Shown: in pieces, positions 1 through 9,875 of the stretch | How the letters are laid out: each line of letters begins with the position of its first letter | How positions within the stretch are numbered: the stretch's first letter is position 1 | DNA from: a virus | Lineage: Duplodnaviria; Heunggongvirae; Uroviricota; Caudoviricetes | Reading direction: 5' to 3' (one strand) | Virus record (IMG/VR): IMGVR_UViG_2681813267_000008 | Span: 1 to 9,875 of that record | DNA: 9,875 bases | The notes under the pieces: model-generated | Told to the model about the DNA's origin: nothing | Seen by the model: the letters and a program-made list of their open reading frames with translations, nothing else | The model's database searches: none | Translations under genes and position numbers: made by a program

Positions 1-33
1 ACTGGTTGTCTGGAGATTCAGGGGGCCAGTCTA
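1..33 (-). mobile_element. Terminal ~33 bp of an IS2-like element (left inverted repeat on the minus strand; element body lies outside the window to the left)
   Basis: Reverse complement of 1-33 is TAGACTGGCCCCCTGAATCTCCAGACAACCAGT, which matches the IS2 left terminus as I recall it (TAGACTGGCCCCCTGAATCTCCAGACAACC...) over about 30 nt. Identification is by recall, not search. Confidence 0.5.
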
Positions 34-153
34 CGGACATTTTCTGCCTGTGGACCAGGAAAGTGCACGGGTGCTTTCCACTCCCATGAAGCCCGGCAAT
101 CCGCGCAGATACAGTAATAAACGAACTGACAGCAGTAAGATGGAGCGTTTCTT

Positions 154-411
154 TTGAACAACCAGACAATGACTTTTACCCCTGAACAATTGCGTAAACA
201 CGCGCAGGAAATGCTGCGTCATGCTGAACAACTCGAAAAAACGGGCATAACAAAAGACGCTATCCGTAAAGATATGGTACCCGCGCTTCGGGAACTGATG
301 CAGGCGAAGCATCGCGCACAGAAAGCAGTAGATGAGCTGGTGGACTGTGTGGCAGAGCTGGAAACCAGAGTCGGAAAGTTTGAAAAACTGGTGCAGGAGG
401 TGCTGCGCTGA
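154..411 (+). CDS. Hypothetical small prophage protein (85 aa from TTG 154; 80 aa if ATG 169 is the start)
   Basis: Open frame ending at TGA 409-411, which overlaps the rusA ATG (TGATG coupling). GGAG at 142-145 sits 8 nt upstream of TTG 154; ATG 169 has no obvious SD. Composition is protein-like and charged. I recognise no family. Confidence 0.5.
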   Translation: MNNQTMTFTPEQLRKHAQEMLRHAEQLEKTGITKDAIRKDMVPALRELMQAKHRAQKAVDELVDCVAELETRVGKFEKLVQEVLR

Positions 412-785
412 TGCGCCATGAGTTTATTTTACCTTATCCGCCGACGGTGAATACTTACTGGCGACGTCGTGACAACACATATTTTGTATCAAAAGCCGGT
501 GAGCGTTATCGCCGGGATGTGGCGCTTATTGTCCGTCAGCAGCGACTGAAATTAAGCCTGTCCGGAAGACTGGCGATAAAGATTATTGCAGAGCCACCGG
601 ATAAGCGCCGTCGTGACCTGGACAATATCCTGAAAGCACCACTGGATGCACTGACACATGCGGGAGTGTTAATGGACGATGAGCAGTTTGATGAAATCAA
701 TATCGTTCGTGGTCAGCCAGTATCTGGTGGACGTCTGGGGGTGAAGATTTACCCCATAATGCATGAAGAGCAGGTCAAAAAATGA
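411..785 (+). CDS. rusA: RusA-family Holliday junction resolvase (124 aa)
   Basis: ATG 411 is preceded by GCAGGAGG at 392-399. The protein has the RRRDLDN acidic catalytic motif and resembles E. coli RusA as I recall it in length and motif placement. Stop overlaps the next ATG (ATGA at 782-785). Confidence 0.85.
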   Translation: MRHEFILPYPPTVNTYWRRRDNTYFVSKAGERYRRDVALIVRQQRLKLSLSGRLAIKIIAEPPDKRRRDLDNILKAPLDALTHAGVLMDDEQFDEINIVRGQPVSGGRLGVKIYPIMHEEQVKK

Positions 786-1636
786 AACTGGAAGATTTAC
801 CGAAATACTACTCCCCAAAATCCCCTTGCCTGACCGATGCATCGGCCTCAACGTCAAAAGATGCGCTGAGTATCACTGATGTGATGGCCGCGCAGGGCAT
901 GACACAGAATCGGGCTGAGATGGGGTTTTCTGCGTTCCTGGGGAAAATGGGCATCAGTATGAATGACAGGGCGCGGGCAACAGAATTACTGGCAGATTAT
1001 GCACTCAGTCGGTGCGATCGTGTGGCGGCGTTGAGAAAACTTCCGGCAGAAATAAAACCGGTAGTGATGCGCATTATGGCTTCGTACGCTTTTGAGGATT
1101 ATGCCCGCAGCGCAGCGAGTAAAAAGCAGTGCCCTTGTTGCTATGGGGAAAAATTTATTGAAAGCGTAGTTTTTACAAACAAGGTCCAGTATCCGGATGG
1201 TAAGCCGCCGGTATGGGCAAAGTGTACGAAAGGTGTGTATCCGTCTTACTGGGAAGAATGGAAAAAAGTCAGGGAGGTGGTAAAAGTTGCCTGTCCGGAG
1301 TGTGGCGGAAAGGGTGAGGTTTCCACCGCCTGTAAGGATTGCCGTGGGCGTGGTGTCGCCATTCATCGTGAAGAGTCGGTAAAACGTGGTATGCCTGTTA
1401 TCAGAGACTGCCAGCGTTGTGGTGGTCGTGGCTATGAAAGACTACCATCAACGGAGGCATTTAATGCTATATGCGAGGTGACAAACCAGATAACACGCGC
1501 GTCATGGGAAAAAACAGTTAAGAAATTCTATGATGCGCTGGTGACTCGGTTTGATATTGAAGAAGCATGGGCTGAGCGGCAGTTAAAAAAGGTAACTAGG
1601 TTGATTTTTCCGGAATCTGTGGTAAATTCGTCATAA
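782..1636 (+). CDS. Late-gene antiterminator Q-like protein (284 aa) with four CxxCxGxG zinc-finger repeats
   Basis: Translationally coupled to rusA and followed immediately by a pR'-like promoter and intrinsic terminator, the canonical lambdoid Q position. Repeats CPCCYGEK, CPECGGKG, CKDCRGRG, CQRCGGRG are visible. Assignment as Q is positional plus motif inference. Confidence 0.55.
   Translation: MKLEDLPKYYSPKSPCLTDASASTSKDALSITDVMAAQGMTQNRAEMGFSAFLGKMGISMNDRARATELLADYALSRCDRVAALRKLPAEIKPVVMRIMASYAFEDYARSAASKKQCPCCYGEKFIESVVFTNKVQYPDGKPPVWAKCTKGVYPSYWEEWKKVREVVKVACPECGGKGEVSTACKDCRGRGVAIHREESVKRGMPVIRDCQRCGGRGYERLPSTEAFNAICEVTNQITRASWEKTVKKFYDALVTRFDIEEAWAERQLKKVTRLIFPESVVNSS
1601..1628 (+). 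promoter_or_regulatory. pR'-like late promoter candidate (TTGATT, 16-bp spacer, TAAATT)
   Basis: TTGATT at 1601-1606 and TAAATT at 1623-1628, overlapping the 3' end of the Q-like ORF and about 50 nt upstream of an intrinsic terminator. This parallels lambda pR'/tR'. Confidence 0.4.
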
Positions 1637-1677
1637 CTATGGGCGTTTTATGCCTGACGTTAGAAGAGTTTCTACAA

Positions 1678-1699
1678 CCCGCCGCCGAGCGGGTTTTTT
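1678..1699 (+). terminator. tR'-like rho-independent terminator
   Basis: Stem CCCGC (1678-1682) / GCGGG (1689-1693), 6-nt loop, then TTTTTT at 1694-1699. Confidence 0.6.
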
Positions 1700-1738
1700 A
1701 TTGCGGAATTAATTACGGACCGTTATTATTCTGCTCCC

Positions 1739-1814
1739 GGCCCTTTAGCTCAGTGGTGAGAGCGAGCGACTCATAATCGCCAGGTCGCTGGTTCAAATCC
1801 AGCAAGGGCCACCA
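1739..1814 (+). tRNA. ileZ: tRNA-Ile2-like, anticodon CAU (ileX-like; could formally be elongator tRNA-Met)
   Basis: Hand-folded cloverleaf: acceptor GGCCCTT/AAGGGCC, D-arm GCTC..GAGC, anticodon loop CTCATAA, T-loop TTCAAAT, discriminator A, encoded CCA. Resembles E. coli ileX as I recall it. Confidence 0.8.
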
Positions 1815-1821
1815 TCACAAA

Positions 1822-1901
1822 CCGCCATTAGCTTATCAGGAAGAGCAGACGACACGATAACAGGGTTGTTGGTGCGGGGGCGGGTCCCCGATGGCGGTCC
1901 A
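1822..1901 (+). pseudogene. Degenerate tRNA-like remnant (argN-like acceptor arm, disrupted anticodon arm and T-loop)
   Basis: Shares acceptor halves CCGCCAT/ATGGCGG and CCA with the intact tRNA-Arg(UCG) at 4943-5019, but the interior does not fold into an anticodon stem-loop and the T-loop lacks TTCAAGT. Length is 80 nt versus 77. Confidence 0.5.
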
Positions 1902-1914
1902 TTATCGGTATTCA

Positions 1915-1991
1915 GCGTTGTTAGCTCAGCCGGACAGAGCAATTGCCTTCTAAGCAATCGGTCACTGGTTCGAATCCAGTACAGCGCGCCA
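1915..1991 (+). tRNA. argO: tRNA-Arg, anticodon UCU (reads AGA/AGG)
   Basis: Acceptor GCGTTGT/ACAGCGC (one G-U pair), D-arm GCTC..GAGC, anticodon stem ATTGC/GCAAT with loop CTTCTAA, T-loop TTCGAAT, encoded CCA. Confidence 0.8.
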
Positions 1992-2101
1992 TATTCATTC
2001 TTCCAGATTCCTTCCGGCAGAGCCTTATACTGAAATATACCTGGCTCAGGATATTGTTGAAAATATTTTATGTTTGTCAAAAATAAAAGTTCTGTTAAGT
2101 A

Positions 2102-2455
2102 TTGATTGAGTGTTTGTTATACGGTCTAATGGTTTTTTCAGCATTAAATATTTATCATTCATATGGTGTGGGTAGAGTGAATATTGATGAGGCGTCGGGG
2201 TGTTTCATCCTTAGGCAGCGTATTGATATAGTCAATGCAGCACGAGCAAAGGCCTTCAGCCGTTTGACAGTTTTGTTCTGTACTCCTGATCGTCTTTCGG
2301 GAAGAGACGTTATTATTCTGAATAGTGATGCTATACAGAGGGTTTGCGATGAGTTCATGGTTGCTAATTCAGAATTATTTGCTCTTGTTCAGGAGTACAA
2401 CAGAATAGCCAGGACCTGTGGTATGGATGAACTTCGGATTACTCATCTGGGGTAG
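2102..2455 (+). CDS. Hypothetical protein (117 aa from TTG 2102; 108 aa from ATG 2129), function unknown
   Basis: The plus-frame product has balanced, protein-like composition, while the antisense ORF 2155-2358 is Ser/Thr/Arg-rich. No convincing SD at either start. The same ORF recurs at 5220-5573. Confidence 0.35.
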   Translation: MIECLLYGLMVFSALNIYHSYGVGRVNIDEASGCFILRQRIDIVNAARAKAFSRLTVLFCTPDRLSGRDVIILNSDAIQRVCDEFMVANSELFALVQEYNRIARTCGMDELRITHLG

Positions 2456-2769
2456 ATACATATCTGGATTATCACCTGTTACGGTAAAAAGTGATTGCTT
2501 ACTGTTTTTGTGAATGGCATTGCAGCAGCCGGATAATGTCAGTGCTGGCTGACGGTGTGCTGGTGGCGGGTGTGGTGGTTGTTGCTTTCCCGTTGCTGAA
2601 AAAGAAAACGCCAGACTGTTAGCCGGGTATCAGTTAGCGGGAGAAATTTTTAAATACTTCACAATTCAGGCGGTTGACTGTTGTCTGGTTTGCGGGGAGT
2701 TTGTTAAAAGAAACTGGCATGGTGAATCCCCCTGTGCGGAGGGGCAATCAGCGAGTAGGTATATGGGAN

Positions 2770-3188
2770 TCCAGTATCCGGATGGTAAGCCGCCGGTATG
2801 GGCAAAGTGTACGAAAGGTGTGTATCCGTCTTACTGGGAAGAATGGAAAAAAGTCAGGGAGGTGGTAAAAGTTGCCTGTCCGGAGTGTGGCGGAAAGGGT
2901 GAGGTTTCCACCGCCTGTAAGGATTGCCGTGGGCGTGGTGTCGCCATTCATCGTGAAGAGTCGGTAAAACGTGGTATGCCTGTTATCAGAGACTGCCAGC
3001 GTTGTGGTGGTCGTGGCTATGAAAGACTACCATCAACGGAGGCATTTAATGCTATATGCGAGGTGACAAACCAGATAACACGCGCGTCATGGGAAAAAAC
3101 AGTTAAGAAATTTTATGATGCGCTGGTGACCCGGTTTGATATTGAAGAAGCATGGGCTGAGCGGCAGTTAAAAAAGGTAACTAGGTAA
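2770..3188 (+). pseudogene. 3' fragment of a paralogous Q-like gene (C-terminal ~139 codons), beginning at the ambiguous base 2769
   Basis: 2770-3188 aligns to 1185-1600 of the full Q-like gene with a few substitutions. A 7-nt insertion (TAACAAG) relative to copy 1 creates a stop at 3186-3188, giving a ...KKVTR C-terminus. No start codon or N-terminal half. Confidence 0.5.
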
Positions 3189-3193
3189 CAAGG

Positions 3194-3221
3194 TTGATTT
3201 TTCCGGAATCTGTGGTAAATT
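3194..3221 (+). promoter_or_regulatory. pR'-like late promoter candidate (copy 2)
   Basis: TTGATT at 3194-3199, 16-bp spacer, TAAATT at 3216-3221. Same elements as 1601-1628 but here located after the Q stop codon. Confidence 0.35.
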
Positions 3222-3270
3222 CGTCATAACGATGGGCGTTTTATGCCTGACGTTAGAAGAGTTTCTACAA

Positions 3271-3292
3271 CCCGCCGCCGAGCGGGTTTTTT
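3271..3292 (+). terminator. tR'-like rho-independent terminator (copy 2)
   Basis: CCCGC / GCGGG stem followed by TTTTTT; identical to 1678-1699. Confidence 0.6.
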
Positions 3293-3412
3293 ATGACTGA
3301 AATCGCGTCAGTACAGTAAACGCGCTGGTGGCGGTGAATACCTGTCTTTCAGCTTGCTGGCTTTTTCGACAAGAGTTATTGGTGTGTCACGTTAACCGGA
3401 AAAGGAAAAGAC

Positions 3413-3610
3413 ATGCTAAAACAGCAGGATATGACAGAAACCGCCAGAGTGGTGTTTAATGAATTAAGCGTTACCGAACCGGCGACAGTCGGGGAGATAG
3501 CGCAGAATACTTACCTTTCACGCGAACGCTGCCAGTTAATACTGACCCAGCTGGTTATGGCGGGTCTGGCAGACTATCAGTTCGGTTGTTACAGACGCCT
3601 TCCGCAGTGA
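3413..3610 (+). CDS. Small winged-helix/HTH protein, PapI/FaeA-like (65 aa)
   Basis: ATG 3413 is preceded by AAGGAAAAG. Residues TVGEIAQNTYLSRERCQLILTQLVMAGL form a helix-turn-helix pattern resembling PapI/FaeA regulators (EIA ... AGM/L); the family call is pattern-based from memory. An intrinsic terminator follows directly. Confidence 0.5.
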   Translation: MLKQQDMTETARVVFNELSVTEPATVGEIAQNTYLSRERCQLILTQLVMAGLADYQFGCYRRLPQ

Positions 3611-3620
3611 AGGCTTTTTT
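3597..3620 (+). terminator. Rho-independent terminator after the small HTH ORF
   Basis: Stem GCCTTC (3597-3602) / GAAGGC (3609-3614), loop CGCAGT, then TTTTTT at 3615-3620. Confidence 0.6.
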
Positions 3621-3637
3621 ATTTGTGGTAAATGGGC

Positions 3638-3668
3638 GGCTGGTGGGTGTTAGGGGCACCCACCAGCC
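3638..3668. repeat. Perfect 12-bp inverted repeat with 7-nt spacer (GGCTGGTGGGTG ttagggg CACCCACCAGCC)
   Basis: Exact reverse-complement arms read directly from the sequence. Lies between the HTH ORF terminator and the methyltransferase gene. No U-tract on either strand, so it is more likely an operator or processing site than a terminator. Confidence 0.5.
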
Positions 3669-3760
3669 ATCTGCTCATGCGTTGGGTTCACAAGCAAACC
3701 TCAGGCCCACTGCTTTGCGCAAAAGCAGAATGAGCCTATCAGAGACAGGCTTAATGATCC

Positions 3761-4819
3761 ATGCTTAATACTGTAAAAATATCCAGTTGTGAGTTAATCA
3801 ACGCCGACTGCCTGGAATTTATCCGGTCGTTACCCGAAAATTCTGTTGACCTGATAGTCACGGACCCGCCGTACTTTAAAGTGAAGCCTGAGGGCTGGGA
3901 TAACCAGTGGAAGGGCGACGATGATTACCTGAAGTGGCTGGACCAGTGTCTGGCGCAGTTCTGGCGGGTGCTGAAACCTGCCGGAAGTCTTTACCTGTTC
4001 TGTGGTCATCGCCTGGCATCTGATATCGAAATCATGATGCGTGAACGCTTCAGTGTGCTGAACCATATTATCTGGGCGAAGCCGTCCGGACGCTGGAACG
4101 GATGCAACAAGGAAAGCCTGCGGGCGTATTTCCCCGCCACAGAGCGCATTCTGTTCGCGGAACATTATCAGGGGCCGTATCGTCCGAAAGATGCCGGGTA
4201 TGCGGCGAAGGGCAGTGCACTGAAACAGCATGTGATGGCCCCGCTGATTTCTTACTTTCGTGATGCGCGAGCTGCCCTGGGGATAACGGCAAAACAGATT
4301 GCAGATGCCACAGGAAAGAAAAACATGGTGTCGCACTGGTTCAGTGCCGGTCAGTGGCAGTTGCCGAATGAAAGCGATTATCTGAAATTACAGGCGCTGT
4401 TTGCCCGGGTGGCAGAAGAGAAGCATCGGCGTGGTGAACTGGAAAAGCTCCACCACCAGCTGGTGGATACGTATACCTCACTGAACCGGCAGTATGCGGA
4501 GCTGCTGAGTGAATATAAACATCTGCGGCGGTATTTTGGCGTGACGGTGCAGGTGCCGTATACCGATGTGTGGACGCATAAACCGGTGCAGTTCTATCCC
4601 GGGAAACATCCGTGCGAAAAACCGGCAGAAATGCTGCAGCAGATAATCAGCGCTAGCAGTCGTCCGGGTGACCTGATTGCAGATTTTTTCATGGGGTTGG
4701 GTTCGACAGTGAAAGCGGCACTGGCGCTCGGGCGTCGTGCAATTGGCGTTGAGCTGGAGACTGAACGTTTTGAGCAGACGGTTCGGGAAGTACAGGATTT
4801 AGTCAGCCAGAACGGATGA
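3761..4819 (+). CDS. DNA methyltransferase, beta-class amino-MTase (N6-adenine or N4-cytosine), 352 aa, with a central insertion
   Basis: Motif order is IV then I: DPPY at residues 35-38, VLKPAGSLYLF, NHIIWAKP, then HPCEKP and DFFMGLGST near the C-terminus. A ~170-aa insertion contains an HTH-like stretch (ITAKQIADATGKK). No partner restriction-endonuclease ORF is present. Confidence 0.85.
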   Translation: MLNTVKISSCELINADCLEFIRSLPENSVDLIVTDPPYFKVKPEGWDNQWKGDDDYLKWLDQCLAQFWRVLKPAGSLYLFCGHRLASDIEIMMRERFSVLNHIIWAKPSGRWNGCNKESLRAYFPATERILFAEHYQGPYRPKDAGYAAKGSALKQHVMAPLISYFRDARAALGITAKQIADATGKKNMVSHWFSAGQWQLPNESDYLKLQALFARVAEEKHRRGELEKLHHQLVDTYTSLNRQYAELLSEYKHLRRYFGVTVQVPYTDVWTHKPVQFYPGKHPCEKPAEMLQQIISASSRPGDLIADFFMGLGSTVKAALALGRRAIGVELETERFEQTVREVQDLVSQNG

Positions 4820-4859
4820 TATTGAAGAATTAATTACGCGTCGTTATTATGCGGCTCCC

Positions 4860-4935
4860 GGCCCTTTAGCTCAGTGGTGAGAGCGAGCGACTCATAATCG
4901 CCAGGTCGCTGGTTCAAATCCAGCAAGGGCCACCA
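4860..4935 (+). tRNA. ileZ: tRNA-Ile2-like, anticodon CAU (copy 2)
   Basis: Identical to 1739-1814. Confidence 0.8.
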
Positions 4936-4942
4936 TCACATA

Positions 4943-5019
4943 CCGCCATTAGCTCATCAGGAAAGAGCGCCAGCCTTCGAAGCTGGCTGCGCGGGGTTCA
5001 AGTCCCCGATGGCGGTCCA
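4943..5019 (+). tRNA. argN: tRNA-Arg, anticodon UCG (reads CGA)
   Basis: Acceptor CCGCCAT/ATGGCGG, D-arm GCTC..GAGC, anticodon stem CCAGC/GCTGG with loop CTTCGAA, T-arm CGGGG-TTCAAGT-CCCCG, encoded CCA. The 5' C start is unusual but the fold is complete. Confidence 0.75.
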
Positions 5020-5032
5020 TTATCTGCATCAT

Positions 5033-5109
5033 GCGTTGTTAGCTCAGCCGGACAGAGCAATTGCCTTCTAAGCAATCGGTCACTGGTTCGAATCCAGTAC
5101 AGCGCGCCA
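5033..5109 (+). tRNA. argO: tRNA-Arg, anticodon UCU (copy 2)
   Basis: Identical to 1915-1991. Confidence 0.8.
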
Positions 5110-5219
5110 TATTCATTCTTCCAGATTCCTTCCGGCAGAGCCTTATACTGAAATATACCTGGCTCAGGATATTGTTGAAAATATTTTATGTTTGTCAAAA
5201 ATAAAAGTTCTGTTAAGTA

Positions 5220-5573
5220 TTGATTGAGTGTTTGTTATACGGTCTAATGGTTTTTTCAGCATTAAATATTTATCATTCATATGGTGTGGGTAGAGTGAAT
5301 ATTGATGAGGCGTCGGGGTGTTTCATCCTTAGGCAGCGTATTGATATAGTCAATGCAGCACGAGCAAAGGCCTTCAGCCGTTTGACAGTTTTGTTCTGTA
5401 CTCCTGATCGTCTTTCGGGAAGAGACGTTATTATTCTGAATAGTGATGCTATACAGAGGGTTTGCGATGAGTTCATGGTTGCTAATTCAGAATTATTTGC
5501 TCTTGTTCAGGAGTACAACAGAATAGCCAGGACCTGTGGTATGGATGAACTTCGGATTACTCATCTGGGGTAG
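5220..5573 (+). CDS. Hypothetical protein (second copy of the 117-aa ORF)
   Basis: Translation identical to 2102-2455. Confidence 0.35.
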   Translation: MIECLLYGLMVFSALNIYHSYGVGRVNIDEASGCFILRQRIDIVNAARAKAFSRLTVLFCTPDRLSGRDVIILNSDAIQRVCDEFMVANSELFALVQEYNRIARTCGMDELRITHLG

Positions 5574-5966
5574 ATACATATCTGGATTATCACCTGTTAC
5601 GGTAAAAAGTGATTGCTTACTGTTTTTGTGAATGGCATTGCAGCAGCCGGATAATGTCAGTGCTGGCTGACGGTGTGCTGGTGGCGGGTGTGGTGGTTGT
5701 TGCTTTCCCGTTGCTGAAAAAGAAAACGCCAGACTGTTAGCCGGGTATCAGTTAGCGGGAGAAATTTTTAAATACTTCACAATTCAGGCGGTTGACTGTT
5801 GTCTGGTTTGCGGGGAGTTTGTTAAAAGAAACTGGCATGGTGAATCCCCCTGTGCGGAGGGGCAATCAGCGAGTAGGTATATGGGATAATCGCGGATTCA
5901 GGTGCTGGTACTGAATTCACCGGGAGGCACCCGGCACCATGCAATGGCACATAGCGCCACTCTCCA

Positions 5967-6000
5967 GCCCCTCTCCGGAGGGGCTGTTTATATTGATTTT
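5967..6000 (+). terminator. GC-rich hairpin with U-rich tail (terminator-like)
   Basis: Stem CCCCTC (5967-5972) / GAGGGG (5977-5982), tetraloop TCCG, then CTGTTTATATTGATTTTG. Recurs at about 7716-7740 and, partly, after the gap at 9074-9110. Confidence 0.4.
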
Positions 6001-6131
6001 GTCAGATGTGANGGTGGGTGTTAGGGGCACCCACCAGCCATCTGCTCATGCGTTGGGTTCACAAGCAAACCTCAGGCCCACTGCTTTGCGCAAAAGCAGA
6101 ATGAGCCTATCAGAGACAGGCTTAATGATCC

Positions 6132-7190
6132 ATGCTTAATACTGTAAAAATATCCAGTTGTGAGTTAATCAACGCCGACTGCCTGGAATTTATCCGGTCG
6201 TTACCCGAAAATTCTGTTGACCTGATAGTCACGGACCCGCCGTACTTTAAAGTGAAGCCTGAGGGCTGGGATAACCAGTGGAAGGGCGACGATGATTACC
6301 TGAAGTGGCTGGACCAGTGTCTGGCGCAGTTCTGGCGGGTGCTGAAACCTGCCGGAAGTCTTTACCTGTTCTGTGGTCATCGCCTGGCATCTGATATCGA
6401 AATCATGATGCGTGAACGCTTCAGTGTGCTGAACCATATTATCTGGGCGAAGCCGTCCGGACGCTGGAACGGATGCAACAAGGAAAGCCTGCGGGCGTAT
6501 TTCCCCGCCACAGAGCGCATTCTGTTCGCGGAACATTATCAGGGGCCGTATCGTCCGAAAGATGCCGGGTATGCGGCGAAGGGCAGTGCACTGAAACAGC
6601 ATGTGATGGCCCCGCTGATTTCTTACTTTCGTGATGCGCGAGCTGCCCTGGGGATAACGGCAAAACAGATTGCAGATGCCACAGGAAAGAAAAACATGGT
6701 GTCGCACTGGTTCAGTGCCGGTCAGTGGCAGTTGCCGAATGAAAGCGATTATCTGAAATTACAGGCGCTGTTTGCCCGGGTGGCAGAAGAGAAGCATCGG
6801 CGTGGTGAACTGGAAAAGCTCCACCACCAGCTGGTGGATACGTATACCTCACTGAACCGGCAGTATGCGGAGCTGCTGAGTGAATATAAACATCTGCGGC
6901 GGTATTTTGGCGTGACGGTGCAGGTGCCGTATACCGATGTGTGGACGCATAAACCGGTGCAGTTCTATCCCGGGAAACATCCGTGCGAAAAACCGGCAGA
7001 AATGCTGCAGCAGATAATCAGCGCTAGCAGTCGTCCGGGTGACCTGATTGCAGATTTTTTCATGGGGTTGGGTTCGACAGTGAAAGCGGCACTGGCGCTC
7101 GGGCGTCGTGCAATTGGCGTTGAGCTGGAGACTGAACGTTTTGAGCAGACGGTTCGGGAAGTACAGGATTTAGTCAGCCAGAACGGATGA
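6132..7190 (+). CDS. DNA methyltransferase, beta-class amino-MTase (second identical copy)
   Basis: 352-aa translation identical to 3761-4819. Upstream homology begins exactly at the ambiguous base 6012, inside the left arm of the 12-bp inverted repeat. Confidence 0.85.
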   Translation: MLNTVKISSCELINADCLEFIRSLPENSVDLIVTDPPYFKVKPEGWDNQWKGDDDYLKWLDQCLAQFWRVLKPAGSLYLFCGHRLASDIEIMMRERFSVLNHIIWAKPSGRWNGCNKESLRAYFPATERILFAEHYQGPYRPKDAGYAAKGSALKQHVMAPLISYFRDARAALGITAKQIADATGKKNMVSHWFSAGQWQLPNESDYLKLQALFARVAEEKHRRGELEKLHHQLVDTYTSLNRQYAELLSEYKHLRRYFGVTVQVPYTDVWTHKPVQFYPGKHPCEKPAEMLQQIISASSRPGDLIADFFMGLGSTVKAALALGRRAIGVELETERFEQTVREVQDLVSQNG

Positions 7191-7230
7191 TATTGAAGAA
7201 TTAATTACGCGTCGTTATTATGCGGCTCCC

Positions 7231-7306
7231 GGCCCTTTAGCTCAGTGGTGAGAGCGAGCGACTCATAATCGCCAGGTCGCTGGTTCAAATCCAGCAAGGG
7301 CCACCA
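7231..7306 (+). tRNA. ileZ: tRNA-Ile2-like, anticodon CAU (copy 3)
   Basis: Identical to 4860-4935. Confidence 0.8.
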
Positions 7307-7313
7307 TCACATA

Positions 7314-7390
7314 CCGCCATTAGCTCATCAGGAAAGAGCGCCAGCCTTCGAAGCTGGCTGCGCGGGGTTCAAGTCCCCGATGGCGGTCCA
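7314..7390 (+). tRNA. argN: tRNA-Arg, anticodon UCG (copy 3)
   Basis: Identical to 4943-5019. Confidence 0.75.
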
Positions 7391-7403
7391 TTATCTGCAT
7401 CAT

Positions 7404-7480
7404 GCGTTGTTAGCTCAGCCGGACAGAGCAATTGCCTTCTAAGCAATCGGTCACTGGTTCGAATCCAGTACAACGCGCCA
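7404..7480 (+). tRNA. argO: tRNA-Arg, anticodon UCU (copy 3; acceptor stem fully Watson-Crick)
   Basis: Same fold as the other copies, but the 3' acceptor strand is ACAACGC instead of ACAGCGC, which converts the G-U pair to A-U. Confidence 0.8.
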
Positions 7481-7494
7481 CACTTATTTTCCCT

Positions 7495-7520
7495 GGCTCG
7501 CTTTTGCGGGCCTTTTTTTT
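7495..7520 (+). terminator. Rho-independent terminator immediately after the tRNA array
   Basis: Stem GGCTCGC / GCGGGCC (one G-U pair), loop TTTT, then TTTTTTTT at 7513-7520. Confidence 0.55.
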
Positions 7521-7967
7521 AAATGTCTCACAATTCAGACGGTTGACAGTTGTCTGTTTTGCGGGGAGTTTGTTAAAAGAAACTGGCATGGTGAATCCCC
7601 CTGTGCGGAGGGGCAATCAGCGAGTAGGTATATGGGATAATCGCGGATTCAGGTGCTGGTACTGAATTCACCGGGAGGCACCCGGCATCATGCAATGGCA
7701 CATAGCGCCACTCTCCAGCCCTCTCCGGAGGGGCTTTTCTGTGCCGGATACATCACAGTTTCTGGAACCTTAGGTACTACAGTATCAGTCAGGGTGCTAT
7801 ATTTTCAGATGTGATGAAAGCCTGTCAGCAGGCAGGGCGTATCGGAAATGACCCAGTAGAGAAAACGTTGACTCAGATACCGGTGCTGAGTTACCGGGAA
7901 ACCGGCATCACATGACCGCTATCCTGAGGTGTACTGGCAATAGCGGACACTACCATTTGTTCTTTTT

Positions 7968-8786
7968 TTAAGCAGCCATCTGATGATATTTTTCCCTGAA
8001 GGCTGCCGGGGAGATATTCCCCAGACGAGAGTGACGACGCTGACGATTGTAGAAAATCTCAATGTATTCCCGTATTACTGAGATGGCTTCATCCCGGTTA
8101 TTAAAACGATAGTGGCTCAGGCTCTCATTTTTCAGCGTTCCCCAGAAGCTTTCCATCGGAGCGTTGTCGTAACAGTTACCTTTACGCGACATTGATGTTT
8201 TCAGACCAGACTGCTCCTGTATGACCCGGTAATCGTATGCGCAGTACTGTGAACCTCGATCAGAGTGGTGGATTAGCCCGGCAGGTGGGCGCTGGCTCCT
8301 GAGCGCCATAAACAGGGCTTTACCTGTCAGCTCTTTTGTCATGCGCTCTCCCATGGCGTAGCCGACAATTTCGCACGTATAAACATCTTTGATGCCAGCG
8401 AGGTACAACCATCCCTCCTGTGTGGCAACATACGTCAGGTCCGCCACCCAGACCTGATTTGGTGCTGTAGGAGCGAACGTCTGGTTCAGCAGATTTGGCG
8501 CAACTGGCAGATTGTGGTTCGAGTTCGTAGTCGCTCTGAACTTGCGTTTCTGCTTACAGCGTAGCCTTAGCTCCTTACGAAGACGTGCCAGTCGGTCACG
8601 ACCAACGATGATGCCATTCTCTGCCAGCTCCGTCTGGAGCCGCCGGGTTCCATATGTTTCGCGAGTGCGGATATGTGCCACCTTAATCTCCAGTTTTAGC
8701 CGCTCATCACTTTGTTTTCTGTCTGAGGGTTCATGCTGTACCCAGTTGTAATAACCGCTCCTGGATACACCAAATACCTGACACAT
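7968..8786 (-). CDS. IS3-family transposase OrfB (DDE integrase core), 272 aa from the annotated ATG; naturally expressed as an OrfAB frameshift fusion
   Basis: Catalytic residues in VWVADLTY, HHSDRGSQY and YDNAPMESF. The frame stays open upstream into the orfA overlap. Confidence 0.9.
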   Translation of the reverse strand: MCQVFGVSRSGYYNWVQHEPSDRKQSDERLKLEIKVAHIRTRETYGTRRLQTELAENGIIVGRDRLARLRKELRLRCKQKRKFRATTNSNHNLPVAPNLLNQTFAPTAPNQVWVADLTYVATQEGWLYLAGIKDVYTCEIVGYAMGERMTKELTGKALFMALRSQRPPAGLIHHSDRGSQYCAYDYRVIQEQSGLKTSMSRKGNCYDNAPMESFWGTLKNESLSHYRFNNRDEAISVIREYIEIFYNRQRRHSRLGNISPAAFREKYHQMAA

Positions 8787-8821
8787 CGCTTCAATGGGAA
8801 ATTGTTGTCGCCATTGTTCGA

Positions 8822-9062
8822 TTAACGCGTATTTTTCAGCGACTCCTGTGCAAAATACGCTGTTGCTTTTTTTAATATATCTCGCTCAAGGCGAGCTTCA
8901 TTTAACGCCTTACGCAGTTGCAGAATTTCAGATTCCAGTTCAGCCACCGTGCGGGAACCAGGAGTACCGAGCCCTTTTCTGGCGGCGGTAACCCATTGTC
9001 CTAAAGTGCCTTCAGGAAGAGATAATCGGGAAGCGCCTTCACTGATCGAAAGTTGATTTTCA
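8822..9062 (-). CDS. IS3-family transposase OrfA, 3' portion only (5' end lost in the N gap)
   Basis: Minus-strand translation reads ...GQWVTAARKGLGTPGSRTVAELESEILQLRKALNEARLERDILKKATAYFAQESLKNTR then stop (plus 8822-8824). Leucine-zipper-like heptads and an A AAA AAA slippery site are present. Confidence 0.75.
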
Positions 9063-9073
9063 NNNNNNNNNNN
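9063..9073. other. Assembly gap (11 N)
   Basis: Run of N. Sequence on the left is IS interior; sequence on the right resumes in the terminator-like hairpin repeat. Confidence 0.95.
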
Positions 9074-9121
9074 CTCCGGAGGGGCTGTTTATATTGATTT
9101 TGTCAGATGTGAGTAAACTCC

Positions 9122-9457
9122 TTATGGACTTTGTTGTTTTAGTCCATAAGGACATATTTGCAGAGTGCAACGGTTATTAAAGCATTCATTCAATACGTTA
9201 TCTGTATTTGTAGGGCATTCCTGGCTATTTTTGATTGAATTCCAGAATGTTTTATTGAATGGTACTACGTTGTAAATGGTTACAGGTAGCACTTTGTTAT
9301 TGAGCATGATGCCTGTGTGAGTCAGTGTAAATATACTTTCAGGAGGTAAGAAAGCATCCGATTGATACCAGATTATTAATTTTATTTTACTCCATATGAC
9401 TGAAAAAGATATTCCGCATGATGGCTGGATAACTGTATCAATCACAATCCACTTCAT
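9122..9457 (-). CDS. Hypothetical Cys-containing protein (111 aa) in an AT-rich cargo block
   Basis: True ATG with SD AAGGAA 5 nt upstream on the minus strand. The ORF ends inside a perfect 11-bp-stem hairpin (9120-9151). The surrounding ~600 bp is visibly AT-rich. I recognise no family. Confidence 0.45.
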
Positions 9458-9717
9458 TTAGTTTCCTTGTTTATGCCTTGCTGGTGATGTTCTGAAAAGT
9501 ATAAATGATATTTTTGAATGTAAACCATAGAGCAGAATTATTTTTCTGATGTTGTTTATTGTTTATTTAAATGCAGGGTGGTTTATATCTCGTCTTGTAG
9601 TTTATCCATGCATATCTGCTTGATAATCAGGTTTTTATTTAAGGTATGGTTTTGTGTTTTTTCTGTATTACATGTCAGGTATTTTAAAGAATTATTTTTC
9701 AGATGGTGGAAAGAACC

Positions 9718-9844
9718 ATGGCATTTAAACACTATGATGTTGTCAGGGCGGCGCCGCCGTCAGATCTTGCGGAAAAGCTGACACATAAACTGAAAGAGGG
9801 CTGGCAGCCGTTTGGTAGTCCGGTGGCCATAACCCCTTATACCC
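9718..9844 (+). CDS. Small hypothetical prophage protein, interrupted after codon 42 by the IS3-family element
   Basis: ATG 9718 is preceded by GGTGGA. Translation MAFKHYDVVRAAPPSDLAEKLTHKLKEGWQPFGSPVAITPYT runs in frame straight into the IS terminus at 9845. Confidence 0.35.
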
Positions 9845-9875
9845 TGAGGTGTACTGGCAATAGCGGACACTACCA
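9845..9875 (-). mobile_element. Terminus of a second copy of the same IS3-family element (continues beyond the window)
   Basis: 9845-9875 (TGAGGTGTACTGGCAATAGCGGACACTACCA) is identical to 7925-7955; the flanking DNA differs, so this is an independent insertion. Confidence 0.65.

What the first reader, a model, noticed from the sequence alone, without database searches (positions are those of the whole stretch)
9110..9720. AT-rich cargo island with a well-initiated 111-aa Cys-containing orphan ORF on the minus strand
GC content drops sharply across about 600 bp. The minus-strand ORF 9122-9457 has a true ATG with an ideally spaced AAGGAA SD and ends inside a perfect 11-bp-stem hairpin (CCTTATGGACT ... 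AGTCCATAAGG, 9120-9151). The product has five cysteines and no family I can recognise. Its position between late-region regulatory DNA and an IS is typical of horizontally acquired cargo such as virulence, exclusion or defence genes.
Basis: partly seen in the sequence, partly recalled or inferred. Interest (0 to 1): 0.5.

Follow-up and report, generated by a model that had tools for sequence, protein, structure and literature searches.

The report
Known iraL anti-adaptor gene, prophage-borne
The 'orphan' ORF is iraL, an already characterised prophage-carried gene whose small protein blocks the adaptor RssB so that the stress sigma factor RpoS escapes degradation; it occurs in about a quarter of complete E. 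coli genomes and is ordinary.

Summary
These are the GC drop, the 111-aa minus-strand ORF 9122-9457 with an ATG and a well-spaced AAGGAA, five cysteines, and a perfect hairpin over the stop codon. The ORF is not an orphan. It is iraL, the IraM paralogue that Hryckowian et al. (2014) characterised in uropathogenic E. coli CFT073. It is 110/111 aa identical to CFT073 IraL and scores 162 bits against NCBIfam 'anti-adapter protein IraM' (cutoff 121). It is 61% identical to K-12 IraM with dN/dS 0.15. An AlphaFold2 model superposes on IraM in its crystal complex with RssB (8TWD, rmsd 1.1 A). The published 5'-RACE transcript start and promoter are present (141/143 nt identical to CFT073), which puts the start at 9490. 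IraL binds the RssB receiver domain, blocks delivery of sigma-S to ClpXP and raises RpoS in log phase. In complete genomes the gene is a single-gene insert in lambdoid prophages, lying opposite to late transcription between Q-tRNAs-STnc100 sRNA and the DUF1737-lysis genes. The IS on its left is joined only through an 11-N gap. A real IS600 end lies on its right, inside the DUF1737 gene. The only mildly new point is that the four C-terminal cysteines are the most conserved residues of the family. No crystal structure covers that region.

The parts
9122..9457 (-). iraL coding sequence, 111 aa including the stop codon at 9122-9124. It encodes an RssB anti-adaptor of the IraM family.
   Evidence: ORF list. 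NCBIfam NF007393 scores 162 bits against a cutoff of 121. 110/111 aa identical to CFT073 IraL, WP_000871291.1. 61% identical to K-12 IraM, with dN/dS 0.146. PDB 8twd IraM matches at E = 6e-31. The AlphaFold2 model matches 8twd_A with target-normalised TM 0.92 and rmsd 1.1 A.
9463..9468 (-). Shine-Dalgarno sequence AAGGAA, 5 nt upstream of the ATG
   Evidence: Coordinates. It lies inside the published 5' UTR (PMC4045071).
9490..9490 (-). iraL transcription start, inferred by identity to the 5'-RACE-mapped CFT073 mRNA 5' end ACATCACCAGCAAGGCATAAACAAGGAAAC. The 5' UTR is 33 nt.
   Evidence: The 30-nt published sequence is found exactly at 9461-9490 on the minus strand. The 143 nt upstream of the ATG are 141/143 identical to CFT073 and 143/143 identical to E. 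coli 042.
9498..9524 (-). Candidate sigma-70 promoter: -10 TATACT (9498-9503) and -35-like TTTACA (9519-9524), separated by a 15-nt spacer
   Evidence: Positions. The paper assigns a sigma-70 promoter here but I could not see which hexamers it marked. The consensus scan missed this site, which is expected because the scan accepts only 16-18-nt spacers. The -10 is conserved as TATAAT in the Stx2c-phage paralogue.
9119..9152 (-). 12-bp perfect stem with a 10-nt loop spanning the last codons (PYGLKQQSP) and the stop codon. It is followed by AGUUUACUCAC, so there is no U-tract. It is probably a 3' stabilising hairpin or a weak terminator.
   Evidence: Fold results. No intrinsic-terminator-like site was called. 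The hairpin is absent from K-12 iraM, which has a canonical terminator about 60 nt downstream, and absent from the Stx2c-phage paralogue.
9458..9717 (.). AT-rich (29.6% GC) divergent intergenic region that holds the iraL promoter and the leader of the DUF1737 gene
   Evidence: It contains a PhoP-box-like TGTTTAttgttTATTTA at 9553-9569 that is not significant, since 42 of 200 shuffles of the window had at least one match.
9074..9095 (+). Remnant 3' half of the terminator hairpin and T-run of the prophage sRNA STnc100, which converges on the iraL 3' end. The rest is lost in the N gap.
   Evidence: 9074-9112 is identical to 5973-6011. Rfam STnc100 hits end at 5995 and 7746. The full hairpin is seen in CFT073 and 042.
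9718..9844 (+). 5' part (about 42 codons) of the DUF1737-domain late gene, cut short by the IS600 end
   Evidence: Annotated as DUF1737 in the matching genomes. Homology to CFT073 and 042 stops after ...ACCCTGA. Translation.
9845..9875 (+). Terminal bases of an IS600 copy. The junction is ambiguous by about 3 bp because TGA is shared with the target.
   Evidence: 9840-9875 matches 7920-7955 at 97%. 7928-9062 is annotated 'IS3-like element IS600' at 99.9% identity.
9063..9073 (.). An 11-N gap that joins an unrelated assembly piece (truncated IS600) to the iraL piece

Best explanation
The ORF is iraL, a prophage-borne paralogue of the K-12 anti-adaptor gene iraM. It is transcribed from its own sigma-70 promoter (start at 9490, 33-nt leader, AAGGAA Shine-Dalgarno sequence) in the direction opposite to the phage late operon, so it can be expressed in the lysogen. 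The 111-aa product folds into the PmrD-like beta-barrel-plus-helix core of IraM, followed by a Cys4 tail. It binds the N-terminal receiver domain of RssB, the adaptor that hands sigma-S (RpoS) to ClpXP. With RssB blocked, sigma-S is stabilised and the general stress regulon is raised during exponential growth. Shown here: gene identity, family membership, fold, conserved contact residues, promoter identity and prophage context. Taken from the literature on the 110/111-identical CFT073 protein: RssB binding, the change in sigma-S half-life, and log-phase expression. Inferred: that this copy, with Ser74 instead of Leu74 and an IS600 nearby, is active; that the 3' hairpin ends or stabilises the mRNA; and that Q-antiterminated late transcription runs antisense through it on induction.
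For: NCBIfam 'anti-adapter protein IraM' scores 162 bits against a cutoff of 121 over 1-110. The product is 110/111 aa and 334/336 nt identical to CFT073 iraL. Window 9074-9847 aligns to the CFT073 and 042 loci with only 3-6 mismatches. The exact 30-nt 5'-RACE sequence of iraL mRNA is at 9461-9490, and the upstream 143 nt are 141/143 identical to CFT073. Against K-12 iraM, aa identity is 61% and nt identity 68.8%, close to the published 58.9% and 67% for iraL versus iraM. dN/dS is 0.146, and third codon positions are 49% identical against 83% for second positions. PDB 8twd IraM matches at E = 6e-31. The AlphaFold2 model has mean pLDDT 87 and superposes on 8twd_A with target-normalised TM 0.92 and rmsd 1.1 A, with PmrD next. 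All five IraM cluster-I residues that contact the RssB receiver domain are identical (I4, I6, W22, K26, I42). Clusters II and III, which contact the RssB C-terminal domain and linker, are partly changed (T13S, L75I, H63N, I64V). This fits the published finding that IraL binds only the RssB N-terminal domain. The context is the same as in CFT073, 042 and four phage records: Q, tRNAs, DUF3927, [iraL reversed], DUF1737, holin, lysozyme. Functional data for IraL are in PMC4045071: the sigma-S half-life falls from about 5 min to about 2.5 min in the iraL deletion mutant, IraL co-purifies with RssB, and the two interact in a two-hybrid assay.
Against: No experiment was done on this copy. Its one substitution, Ser74 for Leu74, lies next to interface residue 75 in the helix. 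None of 1323 complete E. coli genomes that carry iraL has it, so an effect on activity cannot be excluded. The locus sits on an 802-nt assembly piece bounded by a gap and an IS600 end, so its true neighbours in this genome are unknown. The -35 element has an unusual 15-nt spacer, and the 3' hairpin has no U-tract.
Confidence: 0.95

Rival explanations
1. The region is an AT-rich non-coding spacer and the ORF arose by chance. This is the refutation the first reader proposed.
For: The region is AT-rich. Pfam has no model for the ORF; the only hit is spurious, at E = 0.056.
Against: The frame is conserved at 24-74% identity across 36 family members with invariant W72, C81, C97 and C102. dN/dS against iraM is 0.146. 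There is a curated NCBIfam hit and a crystal structure of the paralogue. The CFT073 gene has a published transcript start and a deletion phenotype.
Confidence: 0.01
2. It is the iraM orthologue itself, as RefSeq labels it: induced by Mg2+ starvation through PhoPQ and binding both RssB domains, and so not the log-phase IraL.
For: RefSeq and NCBIfam name it 'IraM'. A PhoP-box-like direct repeat, TGTTTAttgttTATTTA, lies 63-79 bp upstream of the transcript start.
Against: It is only 61% aa and 68.8% nt identical to K-12 iraM, against 99% to iraL. The paper finds the iraL and iraM match sets do not overlap, each being at least 95% identical within itself. The upstream regions of iraL and iraM do not align. 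The PhoP-like match is not significant, as 42 of 200 shuffles had at least one. The residues that contact the RssB C-terminal domain are partly changed.
Confidence: 0.03
3. It is a decaying, non-functional copy, inactivated by the L74S change or by disruption of its prophage through IS600 insertion and rearrangement.
For: The S74 variant is absent from all complete E. coli genomes searched. An IS600 interrupts the adjacent DUF1737 gene. Family pseudogenes do exist, for example the frameshifted iraM in L010.
Against: The ORF is intact. The promoter and leader are 143/143 identical to 042. All RssB N-terminal-domain contact residues and all four conserved Cys are kept. Position 74 varies across the family. 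iraL has its own promoter, so it does not depend on phage integrity.
Confidence: 0.05
4. It is a phage-encoded defence, superinfection-exclusion or virulence effector unrelated to RpoS control.
For: It occupies the slot between Q and the lysis genes that holds stx in Stx phages. PHROG 4407 is labelled 'unknown function'.
Against: There is no PADLOC match. The sequence, fold and contact residues tie it to IraM/IraL. Published biochemistry shows RssB binding.
Confidence: 0.01

Closest known systems
IraL of uropathogenic E. coli CFT073 (Hryckowian et al. 2014, mBio, PMC4045071; WP_000871291.1)
   Same: 110/111 aa and 334/336 nt are identical. It has the same promoter, the same mapped transcript start, the same leader and the same 3' hairpin. 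It occupies the same slot in a lambdoid prophage, between the tRNAs/DUF3927/STnc100 and the DUF1737 gene, reversed relative to late genes.
   Different: It has Ser74 instead of Leu74 and one synonymous change. There are two single-base differences in the leader and at -2. The DUF1737 neighbour is interrupted by IS600, and the left flank is lost in an assembly gap.
IraM (YcgW) of E. coli K-12, next to the e14 prophage; crystal structure with RssB is 8TWD
   Same: Same family and same fold (rmsd 1.1 A to 8twd_A). The RssB receiver-domain contact residues are identical, and all five Cys are at the same positions.
   Different: Identity is 61%. IraL carries four extra C-terminal residues that the hairpin encodes. 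The promoter is unrelated. iraM is induced by Mg2+ starvation and, according to the literature, contacts both RssB domains. Contact clusters II and III differ in IraL.
Unannotated IraL-like ORF of Stx2c/Stx2a phages (e.g. phage 2851, NC_049943.1 24233-24562)
   Same: It is 72.7% identical, with the same orientation and the same position directly upstream of the DUF1737 gene. The promoter region is alignable, with a TATAAT -10.
   Different: It is 107 aa and lacks the 3' hairpin extension. Its left neighbour is stx2B rather than STnc100. I found no functional study of it in the library searched.
PmrD (connector protein that protects phospho-PmrA)
   Same: It shares the beta-barrel-plus-helix fold (target-normalised TM 0.73 to 4hn7). 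Both are small proteins that bind a response-regulator receiver domain.
   Different: Identity is only 16%. PmrD has no Cys4 tail, a different target and a different outcome.

Membership tests
IraM/IraL anti-adaptor family (NCBIfam NF007393 / PRK09919) | Full-length sequence match above the curated cutoff | tested here: met
   162 bits against a cutoff of 121, covering residues 1-110 of 111 and profile positions 1-113 of 114.
IraM/IraL anti-adaptor family (NCBIfam NF007393 / PRK09919) | [quoted passage not shown] | tested here: met
   The AlphaFold2 model has pLDDT 87. Foldseek places 8twd_A first (E = 1e-8, target-normalised TM 0.92, rmsd 1.1 A over 78 columns) and the PmrD structures next.
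IraM/IraL anti-adaptor family (NCBIfam NF007393 / PRK09919) | Residues that contact the alpha4-beta5-alpha5 face of the RssB receiver domain (IraM cluster I: I4, I6, W22, K26, I42) | tested here: met
   5 of 5 are identical.
IraM/IraL anti-adaptor family (NCBIfam NF007393 / PRK09919) | Family-invariant W72 and the C-terminal C81/C92/C97/C102 motif | tested here: met
   All are present. They are invariant, or at least 90% conserved for C92, in 36 members at 24-74% identity.
IraM/IraL anti-adaptor family (NCBIfam NF007393 / PRK09919) | Physical binding to RssB and stabilisation of sigma-S | not testable with these tools
   This was shown for the CFT073 protein that differs at one residue.
iraL subtype (CFT073 type) | At least 95% nt identity over the whole coding region, the criterion used in PMC4045071 | tested here: met
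   334/336 nt are identical.
iraL subtype (CFT073 type) | Conserved promoter and regulatory region (at least 96% identity) with the mapped transcript start | tested here: met
   141/143 nt are identical to CFT073 and 143/143 to 042. The RACE sequence is found exactly at 9461-9490.
iraL subtype (CFT073 type) | Expression and sigma-S stabilisation in log phase without added stress | not testable with these tools
   This rests on the literature only.
iraM proper (K-12 type, PhoP-regulated) | At least 95% nt identity to K-12 iraM and the iraM promoter | tested here: not met
   Identity is 68.8% nt and 61% aa. The upstream regions do not align.
Anti-phage defence systems (PADLOC-DB) | Match to any defence-protein model | tested here: not met
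   No family matched at E <= 0.1.

The most novel reading that the evidence does not exclude
The C-terminal tail is not a dispensable flexible appendage. Its four cysteines (C81, C92, C97, C102, in the pattern CPxN-x8-C-x4-C-x4-CPYG) are, together with W72, the only invariant or near-invariant side chains across the whole IraM/IraL family down to 24% identity. AlphaFold2 models the tail at pLDDT 74-79. The tail could be a Cys4 zinc-binding or redox-sensing module that controls the stability or activity of these anti-adaptors. That could explain why full-length IraM is insoluble and prone to proteolysis. The only crystal structure (8TWD) lacks the tail, and its authors describe it as less conserved.
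Probability: 0.35. Interest if true: 0.35.

Novelty: already known. Interest (0 to 1): 0.1.

Why it matters
For this finding it matters little. The gene, its product, its target and its promoter were published in 2014, and RefSeq annotates the gene routinely. Recognising it removes a false 'orphan cargo' lead. It also tells an annotator that this strain probably has raised RpoS in exponential phase, a trait linked to uropathogenic E. coli and Shigella. Two by-products may interest RpoS and RssB specialists. One is the strict conservation of a Cys4 motif in the part of the protein missing from the crystal structure. The other is an intact but unannotated third paralogue directly beside stx2 in Stx2c/Stx2a phages.

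Tried and rejected
- **Pfam:** only a spurious Nairovirus NSm hit (E = 0.056, below cutoff), because Pfam has no IraM model.
- **PADLOC:** no match.
- **PHROGs:** phrog_4407, 'unknown function', which is uninformative.
- **Terminator scan:** the consensus scan called nothing at the hairpin, since it has no U-tract and a 10-nt loop. It also called nothing over the partly masked STnc100 terminator.
- **Promoter scan:** it missed the published promoter, which is expected given the 15-nt spacer. The two sites it did call (9565-9537 and 9406-9379) number fewer than the shuffle expectation, and I disregard them.
- **Fur box:** iraL is up in a CFT073 fur mutant, but there is no match within 3 mismatches, so that effect is probably indirect.
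- **PhoP box:** one match with one mismatch, not significant.
- **Genome-contig scan:** it returned only 7 loci because the back-translated patterns were very strict, and it did not reach Salmonella RssC.
- **Cysteine geometry:** model coordinates are not exposed to scripts, so I could not measure Cys-Cys distances in the AlphaFold2 model.
- **Weak Foldseek hits:** about 28 residues match leucyl-tRNA synthetase structures at E of about 4-7. These are not significant and I did not use them.
- **The search for homologous proteins:** not run, because the identification did not need it.

Full report
**Observation.**
- GC falls to 32.6% over 9110-9720 (34.5% in the ORF, 29.6% in the intergenic stretch 9458-9717), against 49.7% for 1-9063.
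- The minus-strand ORF 9122-9457 begins with ATG and encodes 111 aa.
- AAGGAA lies at 9463-9468, 5 nt before the ATG.
- The product has cysteines at residues 14, 81, 92, 97 and 102.
- The inverted repeat 9120-9130/9141-9151 is perfect and extends to 12 bp (9119-9152) with a 10-nt loop. The stop codon lies in its 3' arm.
- Perfect stems of 11 bp or more average 0.04 per window in block shuffles, so the hairpin is not a chance feature.

**Identity.** The ORF is not an orphan.
- A megablast of 9075-9875 against complete E. coli genomes hit 2530 of 5426 genomes (1381 of them over at least 80% of the query). The feature under the match is annotated 'anti-adapter protein IraM'.
- The coding part alone is present in 1323 genomes.
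- NCBIfam NF007393 (anti-adapter protein IraM) matches end to end at 162 bits, against a curated cutoff of 121.
- The PDB holds IraM residues 1-78 in complex with RssB (8twd), which matches at E = 6e-31.
- The product is 61% identical to K-12 IraM but 110/111 identical to the protein at CFT073 1343465-1343800. That gene is iraL, described by Hryckowian et al. 2014 (PMC4045071).
- The paper gives 58.9% aa and 67% nt identity between iraL and iraM. I measure 61% and 68.8%.
- The paper's 5'-RACE sequence for the iraL mRNA 5' end occurs exactly at 9461-9490 on the minus strand.
- The 143 nt upstream of the ATG are 141/143 identical to CFT073 and 143/143 identical to E. coli 042.
- The frame is under purifying selection. 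dN/dS against iraM is 0.146, and third codon positions are 49% identical against 83% for second positions.

**Anatomy (mRNA sense, minus strand).**
- The promoter has a -35-like TTTACA (9524-9519), a 15-nt spacer and a -10 TATACT (9503-9498).
- The transcript starts at 9490 with a 33-nt leader that carries AAGGAA, and the ATG is at 9457.
- The 111 codons end ...[10 protein letters not shown], with the stop at 9124-9122 inside the hairpin.
- The hairpin is followed by AGUUUACUCAC, so it has no U-tract and the consensus scan does not call it a terminator.
- K-12 iraM ends at ...PYGLK and has a canonical terminator about 60 nt downstream. The four extra IraL residues are encoded by the hairpin loop and its 3' arm. 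I infer a role in 3' stabilisation or weak termination. This is not shown.
- About 26 nt beyond the hairpin lies the G+C-rich hairpin and T-run that terminates the plus-strand prophage sRNA STnc100. Rfam hits at 5806-5995 and 7557-7746 end in the same sequence, and only its 3' half survives at 9074-9095. iraL and STnc100 therefore converge.

**Context and state of the window.** The window is four assembly pieces joined by N: 1-2768, 2770-6011, 6013-9062 and 9074-9875.
- The pieces repeat each other. 2770-3069 equals 1185-1484, 6013-6312 equals 3642-3941, and there are repeated tRNA and methylase blocks.
- The first 39 nt of the iraL piece equal the last 39 nt of piece 2.
- The IS to the left of iraL (7925-9062, IS600 at 99.9% identity) is therefore joined to it only through the 11-N gap.
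- On the right, homology to CFT073 and 042 stops at about 9844-9847, inside the DUF1737 gene. The last 31 nt are the IS600 end seen at 7925-7955. This is a real IS junction.
- In complete genomes and four phage records the order is RusA, Q antiterminator, tRNAs, DUF3927 ORF, (STnc100), iraL reversed, DUF1737, holin, lysozyme, Rz.
- iraL with its AT-rich promoter is thus a roughly 600-bp single-gene insert in the late region.

**Mechanism.** I take these steps from the literature on the near-identical CFT073 protein.
- IraL co-purifies with RssB and interacts with its N-terminal domain in two-hybrid assays.
- Deleting iraL halves the sigma-S half-life in log phase, from about 5 to about 2.5 min.
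- iraL on its native promoter raises sigma-S in K-12.

The IraM-RssB structure paper (PMC10844676) defines three contact clusters.
- In the window protein, cluster I, which contacts the RssB receiver domain, is 5/5 identical.
- Cluster II, which contacts the RssB C-terminal domain, carries T13S and L75I.
- Cluster III, which contacts the linker, carries H63N and I64V.
- This pattern fits IraL binding only the receiver domain.

An AlphaFold2 model built from 35 family members (pLDDT 87) superposes on 8twd_A at rmsd 1.1 A and target-normalised TM 0.92, with the PmrD structures next. The single difference from CFT073 IraL, Ser74 for Leu74, lies beside interface residue 75. No complete E. coli genome has it. 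Position 74 is variable in the family, so I expect the protein to be active, but this is untested.

**Family.** A profile-free scan of 1.84 billion representatives found only 71 relatives at E <= 1e-3.
- In an alignment of 36 full-length members (24-74% identity), the invariant columns are W72, C81, C97 and C102.
- C92 and P103 are at least 90% conserved, whereas C14 is not conserved.
- AlphaFold2 models the tail at pLDDT 74-79.
- The structure paper removed residues 79-107 and called the tail less conserved and flexible.
- A Cys4 metal or redox site is therefore a reasonable hypothesis that I found untested in the papers I read. It is the only mildly new point here.

**Verdict.** The interpretation as an orphan or defence cargo gene is not supported, although the horizontally acquired insert part is. 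The feature is an already known, widespread gene, so interest is low.

Noticed in passing
window 1-9875 (N at 2769, 6012, 9063-9073): The window is four assembly pieces joined by N. The pieces duplicate each other: 2770-3069 equals 1185-1484, 6013-6312 equals 3642-3941, the 352-aa DNA methylase ORF occurs twice at 3761-4819 and 6132-7190, and the tRNA blocks are repeated. Adjacency across the N runs should not be trusted.
   Followed up: partly
window 5806-5995 and 7557-7746 (+); remnant at 9074-9095: There are two full copies of the prophage sRNA STnc100 (Rfam RF02076, 132 and 124 bits) downstream of the tRNA clusters. Its terminator converges on the 3' end of iraL. A 2026 preprint relates STnc100 to the PasD sRNAs.
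   Followed up: partly
L012:5001-5324 (+) = phage 2851 NC_049943.1 24233-24562: An intact 107-aa third IraM/IraL-type paralogue (72.7% identical to IraL) sits directly between stx2cB and the DUF1737/NanS-p gene in 41 Stx2c/Stx2a phage records. It carries no annotation in most of the listed records, including the RefSeq phage 2851 record. A search for papers on iraM, stx2 and prophage found no study of it.
   Followed up: partly
window 9122-9214 (codons 81-111 of iraL); alignment A3: The four C-terminal cysteines are invariant or at least 90% conserved across the family down to 24% identity, while C14 is not. This tail is missing from the only crystal structure.
   Followed up: partly
window 9237 and 9227: The window's iraL has TCA (Ser74) instead of TTA (Leu74), plus a synonymous AAT at codon 77. 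None of the 1323 complete E. coli genomes carrying iraL has this pair (best match 74/76 nt). Together with the IS600 copies, this suggests a source outside the RefSeq E. coli set, perhaps Shigella. That is an inference and was not tested.
   Followed up: partly
window 7925-9062 and 9845-9875: One IS600 (IS3 family) copy is truncated by the gap, and a second IS600 end interrupts the DUF1737 late gene after about codon 42.
   Followed up: yes
window 9553-9569 (+): A PhoP-box-like direct repeat, TGTTTAttgttTATTTA, lies 63-79 bp upstream of the iraL transcript start. It is not significant in this AT-rich setting, since 42 of 200 shuffles had a match.
   Followed up: yes
L010:4001-4318 (E. coli ECGI0523, CP178306.1): This is a frameshifted iraM-type pseudogene with several stop codons in frame, which shows that family members do decay in some strains.
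   Followed up: no
window 782-1636 (+), partial copy at 2763-3188: A 284-aa ORF follows a RusA-like ORF (411-785), which is the position of the Q-type antiterminator. It carries four CxxCxGxG repeats of the DnaJ zinc-finger type. I read this from the translation only and did not test it.
   Followed up: no
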